Shown: positions 34,405 through 49,744, counted from the first letter of the stretch. The stretch: 62,529 bases of DNA from Deltaproteobacteria bacterium (GCA_003194495.1 PQXE01000001.1:79248-141776); one strand, 5' to 3'. Numbers and translations: made by a program. Notes: generated by a model not told the origin, from the sequence alone.

Positions 34405-35127
34405 ATGAGCAAATCAAGCAAATCAAATGGTTTTACTTTAGTTGAGCTCCTCATAACCATGGCAGTTTCTGGTTTCATCATGTCGGCAATTTACGCAACC
34501 TATCTGCTCAACCAGAAATCTTATCATGTGCAGGACGACGTAGCTGAAATGCAGCAGAATTTGAGGACAGTGTTTTATCACTTGAGTCGTGAAATCAGGA
34601 TGGCAGGTTTTGATCCTACCAATATGGCAAATGCAGGGATAATTACAGCTACGGCATCTCGAATCAGCTTCAGTGTGGATATTACAGACAATACCGGAAA
34701 TGGCGGCAGCGATGGAGATACTGATGACACTGATGAACTTATAGATTTCGGTTTTGAACCCGATGATGATACTGATGACAACGGCATTGCTGATTCAGGA
34801 GCCGCGTCTTTAGGCAGACAGACCGGTGGAGCAGGAGGATATCAACCGGTTACAGAGAATATTCAGGCCATTGAATTTAACTATGTTCTTTCAGACGGCA
34901 CCCGGACATTAAACCCATCCCCTGCTCTTCTAAATTCAATTCGAGCCGTCGAGATATCTATTCTCGCCAGGTCTGCCAGGCGCGACAGGGATTTTACCAA
35001 TACTGCCACTTATACTACAGGTGCCGGGACAACATGGGGACCTTTTAACGACAATTACAGGCGTCGACTGATAATCACTAATGTGCAATGCAGAAACATG
35101 GGGCTTTATCAAAAAGTTACCAGTTGA
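34405..35127 (+). CDS. pilW: type IV minor pilin PilW-like
   Basis: Prepilin leader and cleavage motif KSNG/FTLVELLITMAVSGF. PilW-like QQNLRTVFYHLSREIRMAGFDP. An Asp-rich insertion. Confidence 0.8.
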   Translation: MSKSSKSNGFTLVELLITMAVSGFIMSAIYATYLLNQKSYHVQDDVAEMQQNLRTVFYHLSREIRMAGFDPTNMANAGIITATASRISFSVDITDNTGNGGSDGDTDDTDELIDFGFEPDDDTDDNGIADSGAASLGRQTGGAGGYQPVTENIQAIEFNYVLSDGTRTLNPSPALLNSIRAVEISILARSARRDRDFTNTATYTTGAGTTWGPFNDNYRRRLIITNVQCRNMGLYQKVTS

Positions 35128-35136
35128 GGAAATACC

Positions 35137-48000: not shown

Positions 48001-49744
48001 TCCTGTTGCGCAATGGTTGAGCGATTGCGATGGAGATTTTGAATTCGATGCAGATGCCGGGTGCGAAATAGCAAGCCAATTCGGCCGCACCATATATACA
48101 ATGGACAACAATGGAACCAGGATCGATTTCTCTCCAGCAAACATCTCTGATCTGAAAACCCTCGTGAACCCAAATGGTGAAGATATTAACGGCAACAATG
48201 TTACTGACGAAAATGCGGATGCAGAAGTTGTAATAGAATACGCCATTGACCCAGGGTATGATAACGGCGAGTATGCAGGGACCCGTGACCCGTACTGGCC
48301 CTTGGGAGACATATACAACTCGGTCCCCGTGGTGGTCACAGAACCAAAATTTAATATCTGCTACAAAAAGGGGTATTGCGATGAGGTTGACGACGACAAC
48401 GTCACCCATGATGGATTCAAGACTACTCATGCATCCAGAGATACAATCATCTATGTTGGCGCAAATGACGGGATGTTGCACGCCATAAATGAGAGCAACG
48501 GCCGGGAAAGATGGGGCTGGGTTCCGAATTGTGTACTGGGAACCCTGCATGAGTTTAAGGATGGGCACAGGTTTACAGTGGATCTGTCTGTCAAGGCCGC
48601 GGACATTGATGTATCCGACAATTGTACAGGGACAGGCTGGAAAACGGTCCTTGTCGAAGGCCTGAGAAAGGGTGGAAATCACTATTTTGCCCTTGATGTG
48701 ACAGACCCGGATGACCCGCAGCCGATGTGGGAGATGACAGACGACAACATGGGCAAGACTTGGTCGGTCCCGTCATTCGGTTGTGTCGACATCAACGGTA
48801 TGGCCACAAACGTTGTGTTTGTCGGAGGAGGTTATTCTACCACGGAGAACGTTGGGAGCAGGGTCTATATCTTAAATGCCGGCACAGGAGAAATTTTATC
48901 GGAAATTGATGTGGGCGGTGCCGCTAATAACGTGCCGTCGCAAATTCTAGTCATGAGATATCTTCTGGACAAACAAGGCAATCCTGTGGACTATGTCAAC
49001 AGAGAGCCGGTTGATCCCAAGCTCAAGGGTTTTATTGAGGTTGCCTATTTTGGAGACACAAGTGGGACCCTTTATAAAATTACAGGCCTTAATGCGGACA
49101 GCGATTGGTCTCCTGAGGCAGAAGTGCTTTATAAGCCAGAAAACCCTCGGCCCATATATCATAAACCTGCTATAGCGGATGTCTGTAAGAACTGTACCAG
49201 GCGGTTTGTCCTTTTCGGAACCGGGGATGAGAATGATCCCATAGACGGATCATCGCAGAATTACTTCTATGAGATTGAAGACCGTGCATACGATGGTAGT
49301 GCAAATGGACCGGATCATGGCTCACACTGGACTAAGAGCCAGAAAGATGACGGATTATTTCGCATGACCTGGATGTCTACCTTGCCGCTAGGGGAAAAGG
49401 TGTTTTCCGATCCTGTTACCTATCGGAATGTGGTGTACTTCACTACCTACCAGCCTCAGGGTGGATGCGCAATGGGGTTTAGTTACTTATATGGATTGAC
49501 TACGACCCAATGTGGGTCTGAAGGTGGAGAAGGAGGTCTGGAGTATAGTTTTGGTGATGAGCCGCTTGATCCGCACGAAAGGAAACTGGATTTGGGAATA
49601 GGCATTGCCACCTCCCCGGTAATAGCTCCTCCCAGGATGTATATCCAGATACCAAGAGGAGGTGGAGGCGACATGGAACCTCCTGCTGCAATCCAAGTTC
49701 CTGTAGATCCCGGGACCCTTTTATACTGGCGCGAGGATTATTAA
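45062..49744 (+). CDS. pilY1: giant PilY1-like tip adhesin with split vWA domain
   Basis: AGGAGG RBS before the ATG at 45062 and a signal/anchor (CAMITGVCMIMALLVFVG). MIDAS DNSDS, then GKGTPLGASL and VILLTDG about 730 aa later. Propeller blocks: VGANDGMLHAIN, VLFGTGDENDP, NYFYEIED, VVYFTTYQP. Confidence 0.85.
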   Translation: MKTKNPKCRSIAIGHIANHCSIIPPSPDRRWSGGGKISCAMITGVCMIMALLVFVGDSRAADDDIPFFAGETGLPNVMFIFDNSDSMQDVPYLRKNGNTLRPSKPWRYGVKDENGDGFIDEKENGDVDYDYNKYTSTDVEVPMPGKIPPPLPRIDGGPAGLSSTVTKINRNRYWYLIYDENLDWDAIEAGWPENYRYNKIQIEDPGGGNPQVRTINSYSKSGKYWTVYRHDSDESYNIDYLAGVDTEDPCYANNSGWCNTYDNSDPFTYTILTGVPGEVTYPYIKTGSNHGRYIRDANVDWSAIDEDTWKTNYANRLLVVTAGTNEGESRRLSWRSTSGKYWGVTPGFPEDSDYTTRYKIVGDPDDNRYASGGNHPASKLFQAKQALNAFLDSNEIKHCAKKDEEGNCIEEEYSLNMGFATYMSARIPRVRAKYYRKTSFDINDRCRAYYWRVRDTYSDFYDANGPEDGYDITAWGTAYDNVAEGNSIDRLYHEGRCDEQTIHYTVTDISPSPTDSLPNRYRIRLSGVYDYYTWQYFDVSDCSECEGYPYPATFNDGDYTWTRAGGCDAEHPPDCVAGGQGSYYETTPKDTYGDYGITDPSTPRYINKDTLLVTPYKGKCSIPGDDWLCTNPDPDSIDPDSGAGEWTLAEETIENVPININGDLGDIEPNTFDYSYFRYPGEGTDDRPHAWSYRTAYYNVPENAWIYQYSSWKNKSKWGDAIQNDPFFPATVGDEQANHAGDDQVVFVNLPAYDAADAHKGDDVTGQNIAKALNYISLARVPYPRDTRYDRTMMPYTGSLAPNTSTALTGKGTPLGASLENAKEYYESYLDQDVYTQGGCRKNYVILLTDGLETCDGDPVAAAEALNTPLIPDSANSTVKTYVIGFGLDDASKETLDNIAEAGGTTQAYFAADVEELTEVLVSDIWSDISEDSYTRSAPVVTRILEEGDELKIYYAYFDHPVWRGHLKAYNLNEDGTMGDPVAQWLSDCDGDFEFDADAGCEIASQFGRTIYTMDNNGTRIDFSPANISDLKTLVNPNGEDINGNNVTDENADAEVVIEYAIDPGYDNGEYAGTRDPYWPLGDIYNSVPVVVTEPKFNICYKKGYCDEVDDDNVTHDGFKTTHASRDTIIYVGANDGMLHAINESNGRERWGWVPNCVLGTLHEFKDGHRFTVDLSVKAADIDVSDNCTGTGWKTVLVEGLRKGGNHYFALDVTDPDDPQPMWEMTDDNMGKTWSVPSFGCVDINGMATNVVFVGGGYSTTENVGSRVYILNAGTGEILSEIDVGGAANNVPSQILVMRYLLDKQGNPVDYVNREPVDPKLKGFIEVAYFGDTSGTLYKITGLNADSDWSPEAEVLYKPENPRPIYHKPAIADVCKNCTRRFVLFGTGDENDPIDGSSQNYFYEIEDRAYDGSANGPDHGSHWTKSQKDDGLFRMTWMSTLPLGEKVFSDPVTYRNVVYFTTYQPQGGCAMGFSYLYGLTTTQCGSEGGEGGLEYSFGDEPLDPHERKLDLGIGIATSPVIAPPRMYIQIPRGGGGDMEPPAAIQVPVDPGTLLYWREDY

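What the first reader, a model, noticed from the sequence alone, without database searches (positions are those of the whole stretch)
34405..49744. Two tandem paralogous minor-pilin/PilY1 modules with ~1500-aa tip proteins and no major pilin or assembly genes nearby
- Module 1 (pilW-pilV-pilX-pilY1, 34405-40987) and module 2 (fimT/U-like-pilW-pilV-pilX-pilY1, 42056-49744) lie head to tail.
- Each has its own copy of the same sigma54 control block.
- The gene order is W before V, unlike the classical fimU-pilV-pilW-pilX-pilY1-pilE order. Module 1 lacks a GspH-type pilin and neither module has a pilE-like gene.
- The PilY1 paralogs share the C-terminal propeller but have entirely different N-terminal regions of about 900-1100 aa.
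- Multiple minor-pilin/PilY1 sets are known from Myxococcus, where they give pili different adhesive properties.
- A tandem, co-regulated pair with such large divergent heads suggests exchangeable pilus tip complexes with distinct ligands. The region is bracketed by toxin-antitoxin relics, repeats and a strong terminator, which is island-like.
Basis: partly seen in the sequence, partly recalled or inferred. Interest (0 to 1): 0.7.

Follow-up and report, generated by a model that had tools for sequence, protein, structure and literature searches.

The report
Two tandem pilus-tip gene modules
A sulfate-reducer-type bacterium carries, side by side, two sets of genes for the tip complex of type IV pili, each with its own giant adhesin and a near-identical sigma-54 switch. 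This is a real but fairly ordinary variation on the multiple tip sets already known from Myxococcus.

Summary
Window 34.1-49.8 kb carries two head-to-tail minor-pilin/PilY1 operons, each behind a copy of one sigma-54 control block. No other pilin or pilus-machine gene lies in the 62.5 kb.

- The two PilY1 proteins are not recent duplicates. They belong to two old families (24% identical), each with full-length orthologues across Desulfobacterota.
- Close relatives carry one module or the other at this same locus, upstream of radical-SAM/hemE/hemH.
- The heads are not wholly different. Both are MIDAS-containing VWA domains split by family-specific beta-rich inserts of about 390 and 655 aa.
- The order GspH-W-V-X-Y1 is the norm in every related locus I read.
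- Module 1 lost its GspH gene through a 549-nt deletion that left a 3' relic.
- Module 1-type operons carry a conserved sixth gene of 121 aa, family unknown.
- Tandem arrays of two or three such modules occur in 7 of 118 related loci.
- The toxin-antitoxin relics got no profile support.
- Four MITE-like insertions sit between the genes.

Most likely function: two co-induced, alternative priming/tip complexes for one type IVa pilus. This is a new member of a known kind, of modest interest. The source is probably a Dissulfuribacterales (Seep-SRB2-like) genome, which is inferred only.

The parts
34066..34340 (+). Sigma-54 control block, copy 1. It holds a lineage-specific repeat (34066-34150), two palindromic enhancer-like sites (34208-34225 TGGGTAAGCGATTACCCA and 34229-34246), and the -24/-12 element TGGCATAACCAGTGCA (34311-34326).
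   Evidence: Direct repeats D1, D4 and D5, 84-89% identical to 41756-42038. Pattern statistics. The core is conserved in L003 and L005.
34341..34404 (+). Relic of the 3' end of a deleted GspH/FimT-type gene. L003 positions 1793-2341, 549 nt, are missing here.
   Evidence: 34334-34405 matches 42581-42652, the end of the module-2 GspH gene, at 79%. blastn against L003 shows the break.
34405..35127 (+). pilW1, a PilW/GspJ-type minor pilin of 240 aa.
   Evidence: Pfam PilW 1e-7 and N_methyl 6e-8. G|FTLVE site. It is a mosaic: 46% identical to the L003 PilW but 56% to the D. toluolica PilW.
35137..35664 (+). pilV1, a PilV/GspI-type minor pilin of 175 aa.
   Evidence: N_methyl 7e-9. TIGR02523 PilV 4e-12, below that model's cutoff. 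76% identical to the L003 orthologue.
35689..36252 (+). pilX1, a PilX/GspK-type minor pilin without Glu5, 187 aa.
   Evidence: PilX_N 1.2e-6. 80% identical to L003.
36253..36429 (.). MITE-like repeat, TTAGC-rich with about 30-nt terminal inverted repeats, between pilX1 and pilY1-1. Other copies lie at 32380-32594 (+) and 44632-44840 (-).
   Evidence: It folds at z = -4.3. No Rfam match. The short-read contig L040 breaks inside it.
36446..40987 (+). pilY1-1, 1513 aa (1520 aa from the ATG at 36425). Order of features: signal peptide; VWA domain with MIDAS D54-S56-S58...T518...D554 (1520-aa numbering), split by an insert of about 390 aa that includes a CUB-like sandwich; then a diverged PilY1 beta-propeller.
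   Evidence: AF2 model of aa 36-690, pLDDT 89. Foldseek finds VWA folds, S. sanguinis PilB and Kremen CUB. dN/dS 0.31 against L003.
40996..41150 (.). Palindromic MITE-like insertion between pilY1-1 and the small downstream gene.
   Evidence: Inverted repeat I11. Absent from L043, a 96% relative. Copies occur at two places in L003.
41178..41543 (+). Conserved sixth gene of module 1 ('S1'), 121 aa. It has an N-terminal hydrophobic signal or anchor and an AAGGAGG ribosome-binding site. Family unknown.
   Evidence: An orthologue lies directly after the Y1-1-type PilY1 in L003/L004, L001/L002, L039, L042 and L043. No Pfam or NCBIfam hit. Only 24 representative clusters among 1.84 billion proteins.
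41756..42038 (+). Sigma-54 control block, copy 2. Palindromes at 41907-41924 and 41928-41945; -24/-12 element TGGCATAGCCAGTGCA at 42009-42024.
42056..42637 (+). GspH/FimT/FimU-type minor pilin, 193 aa. It is the only one at the locus.
   Evidence: Pfam GspH 1.9e-10 and N_methyl. 75% identical to the GspH of L003 (module-1-type locus) and 74% to that of L005 (module-2-type locus).
42655..43587 (+). pilW2, 310 aa from the ATG that matches the pilW1 start.
   Evidence: PilW 6e-10. 74% identical to L005.
43601..44089 (+). pilV2, 162 aa.
   Evidence: N_methyl. TIGR02523 7.6e-12, below that model's cutoff. 86% identical to L005.
44195..44626 (+). pilX2, 143 aa, without Glu5.
   Evidence: PilX_N 3e-15. 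90% identical to L005.
44632..45033 (.). Two MITE-like insertions in the pilX2-pilY1-2 spacer. The first, 44632-44840, is an inverted copy of the TTAGC-rich element. The second, 44883-45033, is another element with 23-nt terminal inverted repeats, flanked by ACATAAATC on both sides.
   Evidence: Both are absent from the orthologous spacer of L005 and L026. Inverted repeats I1-I8 and I15. Short-read contigs break at 45006.
45062..49744 (+). pilY1-2, 1560 aa (the ORF is open from 45026). Order of features: signal peptide; VWA domain with MIDAS D94-S96-S98...T825...D862 (1572-aa numbering), split by about 655 aa of beta-rich inserts with no PDB match; then a PilY1 beta-propeller.
   Evidence: PF05567 3.6e-14 and VWA 2e-6. 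PDB 3hx6 1.7e-20. AF2 model of aa 70-960, pLDDT 88. Foldseek matches only the VWA part. dN/dS 0.23 against L005.
49761..49781 (+). Intrinsic terminator: GGGCGGGG-CAAAC-CCCCGCCC followed by a T-run.

Best explanation
**What it is.** The region encodes two alternative priming/tip complexes for a type IVa pilus. The machine and the major pilin are encoded elsewhere.

**How each complex would work.** This is inferred from the established Pseudomonas and Myxococcus model.
- PilV, PilW and PilX are cut by the prepilin peptidase. The single GspH/FimU-type pilin of module 2 joins them.
- They stack through their N-terminal helices into a small pilus-like stem. PilX, which lacks Glu5, caps it.
- The C-terminal beta-propeller of the matching PilY1 docks on PilX.
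- The complex primes polymerisation of the major pilin and is carried out on the pilus tip.
- There the N-terminal head of PilY1 faces the outside.

**The heads.** Both are metal-dependent (MIDAS) VWA domains. Each carries a different large beta-rich insert: about 390 aa with a CUB-like sandwich in PilY1-1, and about 655 aa with no solved relative in PilY1-2. The two tips should therefore bind different surfaces or partners (inferred).

**Regulation (inferred).** Both operons are read from near-identical sigma-54 promoters. Each has the same pair of palindromic enhancer sites. One NtrC/PilR-type activator, not in the window, would switch both on together.

**Origin.**
- The two gene sets belong to two old families. 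Each occurs alone at this locus in a close relative, and here they have been joined.
- The first copy of the shared 5' segment (promoter, GspH, start of pilW) later lost its GspH gene. Module 1 must now borrow GspH from module 2 or do without it.
For: **Shown:**
- Family assignments and intact prepilin sites.
- Propeller homology of both large proteins.
- The split VWA/MIDAS head, with family-invariant DxSxS, T and D residues and confident AF2 models that match VWA folds.
- Sigma-54 -24/-12 elements plus paired palindromes in both copies and in L003 and L005. Read by eye, sigma-54-like -24/-12 elements also lie upstream of GspH in L006 and L039.
- All ORFs are intact. dS (0.2-0.3) is like that of the flanking genes, and dN/dS is 0.23-0.45 for most genes.
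- Module-2-type operons sit next to pilMNOPQ or pilP-pilQ in L008 and L006. A module-1-type operon in L039 sits next to two pilin genes and a sigma-54 response regulator.
- L003 and L005 each carry a single module at the same locus.
- The GspH deletion.
- Both modules are present, at 100% identity, in short-read contigs of one sample.

**Precedent:**
- Myxococcus has three minor-pilin/PilY1 clusters. Each alone can prime pili, and they are proposed to give tips with different properties (PMC7541494, PMC13190605).
- pilY1.1 expression is controlled through the NtrC-like regulator HsfA (PMC9109919).
Against: - No pilus machine, major pilin, prepilin peptidase or activator lies in the window, so the link to a T4aP rests on homology and on the neighbourhood in relatives.
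- PilY1-1 misses the Pfam PilY1 model as a single sequence.
- Module 1 has no GspH gene. pilX1 and S1 show dN/dS near 0.8, though on few sites.
- MITE-like elements of 150-360 nt separate pilX from pilY1 in both modules. They could disturb co-transcription.
- Identical promoters argue against differential use, which is the usual rationale for keeping several sets.
- The junction between the modules lies between repeats where independent short-read assemblies break.
- Ligands are unknown.
Confidence: 0.7

Rival explanations
1. Module 1 is a decaying, redundant copy. After the two sets were joined, one became dispensable. It has lost its GspH pilin, has accumulated MITE insertions and is drifting towards pseudogenes. 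Only module 2 makes tip complexes.
For: - The GspH deletion.
- dN/dS of 0.85 for pilX1 and 0.76 for S1.
- MITE-like elements at 36253-36429 and 40996-41150.
- pilW1 is only 46-50% identical to the L003 orthologue.
Against: - All five module-1 ORFs are intact over 7 kb.
- pilY1-1, 4.5 kb long, has dN/dS 0.31 with dS 0.21.
- The same MITE positions occur in L003, whose operon is complete.
- Module 2 carries two MITEs as well.
- The promoter and enhancer sites of copy 1 are intact.
Confidence: 0.13
2. The tandem arrangement is an assembly artefact. The organism, or two co-occurring strains, has module 1 and module 2 at separate places or as alleles of one locus. The assembler joined them through the shared control block and the MITE-like repeats.
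For: - Close relatives have one or the other module at this locus.
- Independent short-read contigs of the same sample stop inside the repeats at 36381, 41045 and 45006, so they do not span the junctions.
- The two control blocks share exact stretches of more than 50 nt.
Against: - The two control-block copies differ at 11-16% of positions and by indels. Both carry the same lineage-specific 140-nt upstream extension that L003 and L005 lack.
- The sequence after S1 (41611-41678) continues the L003-type spacer, which then resumes at 49816. This is the pattern of a clean insertion.
- Both PilY1 proteins are recorded on one 200,649-nt public contig.
- Real tandem arrays of two or three modules exist in seven other loci.
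Confidence: 0.07
3. The modules serve a DNA-uptake (competence) pilus, or another type IV filament, rather than an adhesive or motility T4aP. The VWA heads would have a role other than surface adhesion.
For: - comEC lies 2 kb upstream in the window.
- comEC lies directly upstream of the module-2-type operon in L006/L007.
- GspH/FimT-type pilins bind DNA in Legionella (my own knowledge, not tested here).
Against: - comEC is not adjacent in L001, L003, L008 or L039.
- By eye, the GspH C-terminus does not show the FimT GRxR motif.
- PilY1 with a VWA head is the hallmark of adhesive T4aP tips.
- pilMNOPQ lies beside the module in L008.
Confidence: 0.1

Closest known systems
Myxococcus xanthus minor-pilin/PilY1 clusters 1-3 (Treuner-Lange et al. 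2020, PMC7541494; Mahanta et al. 2026, PMC13190605)
   Same: [quoted passage not shown]
- The propeller is conserved and the N-terminal heads diverge. PilY1.3 has a VWA domain.
- There is no pilE.
- One cluster carries an extra accessory gene (tfcP).
- An NtrC-like regulator controls one set (PMC9109919).
   Different: - Here the two sets are head to tail and share near-identical promoters, and only one GspH/FimU gene is left.
- The PilY1 heads are VWA domains split by very large inserts.
- The accessory gene is not a cytochrome.
- None of this has been tested experimentally.
Pseudomonas aeruginosa fimU-pilVWXY1E operon
   Same: - One operon of GspH-, GspI-, GspJ- and GspK-type minor pilins followed by PilY1.
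- PilY1 has an N-terminal VWA domain and a C-terminal propeller. PDB 3hx6 is the best sequence match for both families.
   Different: - The gene order here is H-W-V-X, not U-V-W-X.
- There is no pilE.
- Control is by sigma-54 rather than FimS-AlgR (the latter from PMC5979040).
- The proteins are about 350-400 aa longer.
Neisseria PilC1/PilC2
   Same: Two PilY1-family paralogues in one genome with different adhesive properties. There is a weak NCBIfam hit to T4_PilC_Neiss.
   Different: The Neisseria genes are solitary, without their own minor-pilin sets, and have no VWA head.
Streptococcus sanguinis PilB, a modular pilin with a VWA module (PMC8179133; PDB 7ba2/7b7p)
   Same: It is the best structural match of the PilY1-1 head (Foldseek E 3e-7). 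Both are MIDAS-containing VWA adhesin modules displayed on a type IV pilus.
   Different: In PilB the VWA module is grafted onto a pilin, in a Gram-positive T4P. Here it is the head of a non-pilin PilY1. This is an analogy of function, not membership.
Type II secretion pseudopilin tip GspH-I-J-K
   Same: The four minor pilins are the homologues of GspH, I, J and K. The GspK/PilX type lacks Glu5.
   Different: A PilY1 gene follows, and no T2SS genes are nearby. In relatives the neighbours are pilMNOPQ.
Allelic minor-pilin/pilin sets of the P. aeruginosa pilin island (my own knowledge: Giltner et al. 2011)
   Same: Divergent, co-inherited sets of minor pilins are exchanged between strains at a fixed locus.
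   Different: Here two alleles have been kept in tandem. The exchange is inferred from three genomes only.

Membership tests
Type IVa pilus minor-pilin/PilY1 priming and tip module | Minor pilins with a class III (prepilin) signal: G|F-T-L-x-E followed by a hydrophobic helix. | tested here: met
   N_methyl or TIGR02532 hits for W1, V1, H2, W2 and V2. A motif scan finds exactly these five in the window.
Type IVa pilus minor-pilin/PilY1 priming and tip module | A PilX/GspK-type capping pilin that lacks Glu5. | tested here: met
   PilX_N 1.2e-6 (X1) and 3e-15 (X2). The sequences show L or V at +5.
Type IVa pilus minor-pilin/PilY1 priming and tip module | A complete set of four core minor pilins (GspH/FimU, PilV, PilW, PilX) in each module. 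| tested here: not met
   Met for module 2. Module 1 lacks the GspH type because of a 549-nt deletion. The PilV assignments rest on TIGR02523 scores below that model's cutoff and on position in the operon.
Type IVa pilus minor-pilin/PilY1 priming and tip module | A large protein with the C-terminal PilY1/PilC beta-propeller. | tested here: met
   Y1-2: PF05567 3.6e-14 and 3hx6 1.7e-20. Y1-1: met only at profile level, with 3hx6 at 1.4e-10 and hhalign probability 100. The single sequence misses Pfam.
Type IVa pilus minor-pilin/PilY1 priming and tip module | A T4aP machine (pilBCDMNOPQ, pilT) and a major pilin in the same genome. | not testable with these tools
   None in the 62.5-kb window, and the rest of the genome is not available. 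Relatives have pilMNOPQ or pilins beside the module. Seep-SRB2 genomes are reported to have T4P genes and pilA (PMC5947290), but the identity of the source is only inferred.
Type IVa pilus minor-pilin/PilY1 priming and tip module | It primes pilus assembly and sits at the pilus tip. | not testable with these tools
   This needs genetics and microscopy.
VWA-headed PilY1 (P. aeruginosa PilY1 and M. xanthus PilY1.3 type) | An N-terminal VWA fold with MIDAS residues DxSxS, T and D. | tested here: met
   Invariant D54/S56/S58, T518 and D554 in Y1-1, and D94/S96/S98, T825 and D862 in Y1-2. AF2 models have pLDDT 88-89. Foldseek finds VWA matches. The domain is interrupted by inserts of about 390 and 655 aa, which is unusual.
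Sigma-54-dependent operon | A -24 GG / -12 GC promoter element at the right spacing, conserved in orthologous loci. | tested here: met
   TGGCATARCCAGTGCA in both copies and in L003, L004 and L005. L006 has TGGCATAAATCTTGCG and L039 has TGGTATTTTTTTTGCA, both read by eye.
Sigma-54-dependent operon | Upstream enhancer sites and a cognate bacterial enhancer-binding protein. | tested here: inconclusive
   Two palindromes lie 21 bp apart, about 85-100 bp upstream, and are found only here. No activator gene is in the window. One lies beside the module in L039.
Genomic island | Integrase, tRNA or direct-repeat borders, deviant composition, and a phylogeny that differs from the flanks. | tested here: not met
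   The only tRNAs are at 23.9-24.2 kb, and no integrase lies at the borders. GC is 0.42-0.48 against 0.46-0.52 in the flanks. dS is like that of the flanking genes.

The most novel reading that the evidence does not exclude
The locus upstream of radical-SAM/hemE/hemH may be a swap site for pilus-tip cassettes.
- A conserved 5' common segment (sigma-54 promoter, GspH, first ~70 codons of pilW) and the conserved 3' flank would let strains exchange whole W-V-X-PilY1 cassettes by homologous recombination.
- This genome has kept two cassettes in tandem with a single shared GspH adaptor.
- If the host is a Seep-SRB2-type partner of methane-oxidising archaea, the two VWA heads could decide which partner or matrix the pili grip.
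- Module-1-type cassettes bring their own small accessory protein (S1), possibly a PilY1 helper comparable to TfcP.
Probability: 0.2. Interest if true: 0.55.

Novelty: new member of a known kind. Interest (0 to 1): 0.3.

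Why it matters
Bacteria with several minor-pilin/PilY1 sets are thought to fit one pilus machine with different adhesive tips. 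This locus shows two old PilY1 families side by side under one type of switch. It also shows one shared GspH-type pilin, and relatives that carry either set at the same place. That makes it a convenient natural case for three questions:
- Are tip sets interchangeable?
- Can the GspH adaptor be shared between sets?
- What do the large inserts in the VWA heads bind?

If the host is indeed a syntrophic partner of methane-oxidising archaea, where a PilY1 is reported as highly expressed (PMC10553843, S10 table), these adhesins are candidates for partner attachment. None of this changes the current picture of type IV pili. It adds two uncharacterised PilY1 families and one small accessory family to it.

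Tried and rejected
- **Rfam.** A search of 27-52 kb at E <= 1 found nothing. The repeats are not known RNA families.
- **Single-sequence searches of PilY1-1.** Pfam, NCBIfam and PDB searches missed the propeller. Only profiles found it.
- **Toxin-antitoxin relics.** The ORFs 33776-34027(-), 33681-33833(-) and 41488-41736(-) gave no Pfam or NCBIfam hit at E <= 1. By eye the first resembles a Phd/YefM-type antitoxin, but that is only a lead.
- **Recent tandem duplication of the whole module.** Rejected. The proteins are 24-49% identical between modules but 74-90% identical to orthologues elsewhere.
- **Orthology of the control blocks.** All four copies are 77-88% alike, with no clear pairing. 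I therefore cannot say which copy is ancestral.
- **Exact look-ups.** The ORF-finder versions of PilY1-2 and GyrB were not on record. The corrected starts were.
- **Source organism.** Accessions of the window's own proteins are masked. SRR6664620/21 appear in no paper. PXF58736.1 could not be matched to either PilY1.
- **PilY1-2 insert.** Foldseek against the PDB gave no credible match outside the VWA part.
- **FimT-like DNA binding.** Considered for the GspH pilin. No GRxR motif is seen by eye.

Full report
**1. What is in the sequence**

Between 34.1 and 49.8 kb, all on the + strand, lie two operon-like gene sets.
- Module 2: a GspH/FimT-type pilin (42056-42637), pilW2 (42655-43587), pilV2 (43601-44089), pilX2 (44195-44626) and pilY1-2 (45062-49744).

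Pfam and NCBIfam support the names. They give PilW, GspH, PilX_N and N_methyl hits, and PilV (TIGR02523) hits just below that model's cutoff. A motif scan finds prepilin cleavage/Glu5 sites in exactly five proteins of the whole window: W1, V1, H2, W2 and V2. The two PilX proteins lack Glu5, as that family does.

The rest of the window holds housekeeping genes and one response-regulator/histidine-kinase gene. Identified genes include gyrB, dnaN, serS, recR, dnaX, thiC, panC, mobB, tmk, comEC and a CDF transporter upstream. Downstream are radical-SAM/SPASM, hemE, hemH, a hemY-like oxidase, biotin carboxylase genes and cobS. There is no pilin, no pilus-machine gene and no sigma-54 activator.

**2. 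The two large proteins**

PilY1-2 hits the Pfam PilY1 propeller (3.6e-14) and the P. aeruginosa PilY1 crystal structure 3hx6 (1.7e-20).

PilY1-1 hits neither as a single sequence. Three results still place it in the family:
- It aligns to PilY1-2 by BLASTP (1e-18, 24% identity), including the VGANDGMLH blade motif.
- A profile of 35 family members hits 3hx6 at 1.4e-10.
- The two family profiles align with probability 100 and E 4.5e-50, from residue 512 of Y1-1 and 819 of Y1-2 to the C-termini.

The N-terminal parts are not unrelated. Both start with a beta-strand carrying DxSxS (D54-S56-S58 in Y1-1, D94-S96-S98 in Y1-2). The matching MIDAS Thr and Asp (T518 and D554; T825 and D862) lie about 460 and 730 residues downstream. 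All are invariant or nearly so in the family alignments.

AlphaFold2 models of residues 36-690 and 70-960 are confident (pLDDT 89 and 88).
- The first matches VWA domains throughout the PDB. The best match is the VWA-bearing pilin PilB of S. sanguinis, and there is a CUB-containing match (Kremen) for part of the insert. Some homologues carry precomputed CUB hits.
- The second matches VWA folds only over its C-terminal part (~110-140 columns in most matches). Nothing credible matches its insert.

So both heads are VWA/MIDAS domains, interrupted by about 390 and 655 residues of family-specific beta-rich modules.

**3. Both families are old and widespread**

PilY1-1 has 185 full-length relatives at 48-89% identity. 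They come from Desulfobacula toluolica, Desulfobulbaceae, Desulfocapsa and many metagenomes. PilY1-2 has 50 relatives. In all ten related loci I read, the order is GspH-W-V-X-Y1. W-before-V is therefore the clade's norm.

Module-2-type operons lie beside pilMNOPQ (L008) or near pilP-pilQ and directly after comEC (L006). A module-1-type operon in a complete 5.8-Mb genome (L039) lies after two pilin genes and an ABC transporter, next to a sigma-54 response regulator. Module-1-type operons are followed by a 113-121-aa gene in the window, L003/4, L001/2, L039, L042 and L043. This family has no Pfam or NCBIfam model and only 24 representative clusters in 1.84 billion proteins.

**4. How the tandem arose**

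Two close relatives are informative.
- L003 (PilY1-1 orthologue, 86%) has rimK(-), then GspH-W-V-X-Y1-S, then radical-SAM, hemE, hemH and hemY.
- L005 (PilY1-2 orthologue, 87%) has the CDF 3' end, then GspH-W-V-X-Y1, then the start of radical-SAM.

Each relative has one module at the locus where the window has both. Between modules the proteins are 24-49% identical, but they are 74-90% identical to these orthologues.

Three things are shared by both module types in this lineage: the control block, the GspH gene and the first ~200 nt of pilW. The window's GspH is 75% identical to L003's and 74% to L005's. The module-2 5' region matches L003 at 82% over 961 nt.

In module 1 the GspH gene is gone. 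L003 positions 1793-2341 (549 nt) are missing, and 34334-34405 is the surviving 3' end of the gene. The two control blocks of the window also share a 140-nt upstream extension that L003 and L005 lack.

pilW is mosaic. W1 is closer to the D. toluolica PilW (56%) than to L003's (46%). L003's PilW N-terminus is 70% identical to that of W2.

dS against the orthologues (0.2-0.3) equals that of the flanking radical-SAM, hemE, hemH and hemY genes (0.17-0.24). dN/dS is higher: 0.31 and 0.23 for the PilY1s against 0.08-0.17 for the flanks. The genes are vertically inherited, under purifying selection, and evolving fast, as expected for exposed adhesins.

**5. Regulation**

Each module is preceded by TGGCATARCCAGTGCA, a full match to the sigma-54 -24/-12 consensus spacing.
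- About 85-100 bp upstream lie two 18-bp palindromes 21 bp apart: TGGGTAAGCGATTACCCA and TGGGTAACGGCATACCC(A/C). They occur nowhere else in the window or in 118 other loci, apart from L003, L004 and L005.
- The core is conserved in all four copies.
- By eye, sigma-54-like elements also lie upstream of GspH in L006 and L039.
- A strong terminator follows pilY1-2. None was found between S1 and the second promoter, so read-through is possible.

**6. Repeats**

Four MITE-like elements sit between genes.
- A TTAGC-rich element with terminal inverted repeats is at 36253-36429 and, inverted, at 44632-44840. A third copy lies between comEC and the CDF gene.
- A second type is at 44883-45033, flanked by a duplicated ACATAAATC.
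- A palindromic element is at 40996-41150.

The module-2 insertions are absent from L005 and L026, and the 40996 element is absent from L043. Short-read contigs that are 100% identical to the window end inside these elements: L040 (36381-41045), and L121 and L009, which both start at 45006.
- Both modules therefore exist in one sample.
- The stretch from pilY1-2 to cobS is independently confirmed.
- The junctions around module 1 are not independently confirmed.
- Both PilY1 proteins are recorded on one 200,649-nt public contig.

**7. Tandem arrays elsewhere**

Among 118 related loci with a propeller hit, seven carry two or three PilY1 genes on one strand, 5-7 kb apart. L011 and L025 (Desulfobacterales MAGs) have two full H-W-V-X-Y1 sets, confirmed by Pfam. 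L067 has three. Tandem arrangement is thus recurrent. I found no paper that describes it ('tandem' does not occur in PMC13190605).

**8. Source organism**

Cluster mates more than 90% identical to the window's HemE, HemH, DnaN and RecR are named Dissulfuribacterales, Thermodesulfobacteriota or Deltaproteobacteria. Some are mis-binned as Methanosarcinales from Guaymas Basin. Seep-SRB2, a partner of methane-oxidising archaea, is a genus of Dissulfuribacterales. PilY1 is reported as conserved in Seep-SRB2, and one PilY1 as highly expressed in ANME-2c/Seep-SRB2 consortia (PMC10553843 and its S10 table). The partner genomes are reported to encode T4P assembly genes and pilA (PMC5947290). That the window is Seep-SRB2 is an inference I could not verify.

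**9. Verdict**

The best reading is two co-regulated alternative priming/tip sets for one type IVa pilus, as in Myxococcus (PMC7541494, PMC13190605). The local features are:
- the tandem position;
- the shared control block;
- a single remaining GspH gene;
- split-VWA heads with large inserts;
- a small accessory gene.

Rivals are decay of module 1, an assembly artefact and a competence role. Each is less likely but none is excluded. This is a new member of a known kind, of modest interest.

Noticed in passing
window 32380-32594, 36253-36429, 44632-44840: A roughly 180-210-nt TTAGC-rich element with about 30-nt terminal inverted repeats occurs three times within 12 kb, in both orientations, always between genes. 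It has no Rfam match and folds well (z = -4.3). The filled and empty sites (window against L005/L026) show that it is mobile. It looks like an undescribed MITE family.
   Followed up: partly
window 44883-45033 and 40996-41150: Two further small palindromic or TIR-bearing insertions. The first is flanked by a duplicated ACATAAATC. The second also occurs at two places in L003. Short-read contigs of the same sample break inside them, so they are probably multi-copy in the genome.
   Followed up: partly
window 41178-41543: A small secreted or anchored protein of 121 aa is conserved directly after PilY1-1-type genes in at least six loci. It has no Pfam or NCBIfam model and only 24 representative clusters in 1.84 billion proteins. 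It may be a PilY1 accessory factor, comparable in position to TfcP of Myxococcus cluster 1.
   Followed up: partly
L067 4818-23418; L011; L025; L053; L057; L066; L116: These environmental contigs carry two, or in L067 three, complete minor-pilin/PilY1 modules head to tail. I did not find such arrays described in the papers I read.
   Followed up: partly
window 29891-32398; L006 4360-6825: comEC lies just upstream of the pilus-tip modules in the window (with a CDF gene in between) and directly upstream in L006/L007. This hints at a possible link to DNA uptake. The adjacency is not seen in the other loci.
   Followed up: partly
window 34405-35127 vs L003 2409-3086 and L001 8118-8825: pilW is mosaic. 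W1 is closer to the D. toluolica PilW (56%) than to that of the close relative L003 (46%). The first ~70 residues of the L003 PilW are 70% identical to W2. This suggests recombination breakpoints inside pilW.
   Followed up: partly
window 12100-16300: gyrB and dnaN lie on the - strand, next to the most AT-rich stretch of the window (GC 0.35 at 14-16 kb). No dnaA ORF is adjacent; a methyltransferase gene follows instead. This may be the replication origin region.
   Followed up: no
window 33776-34027 (-) and 33681-33833 (-): Two overlapping small ORFs resemble, by eye, a frameshifted Phd/YefM-type antitoxin. No profile hit was found at E <= 1. L005 lacks this stretch between the CDF gene and the control block.
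   Followed up: partly
window 4787-5311: A 174-aa ORF holds only the N-terminal SAM-like domain of a phage-type integrase. It is probably a truncated remnant.
   Followed up: no
L008 15952-15967: A sigma-54 -24/-12 match lies upstream of pilM in a relative. The pilus machine genes there may also depend on sigma-54.
   Followed up: no
window pilV1, pilV2, pilW1, pilW2, pilX2, pilY1-1 (aa 572-583): DxDxDG-type, calcium-loop-like motifs recur in several minor pilins. One invariant copy (D574, D576, D578, D583) sits inside the VWA domain of PilY1-1. These were read by eye only.
   Followed up: no
L003 11316-11726: The close relative has a 23S-rRNA-intervening-sequence-protein gene inserted between radical-SAM and hemE. 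The window lacks it.
   Followed up: no
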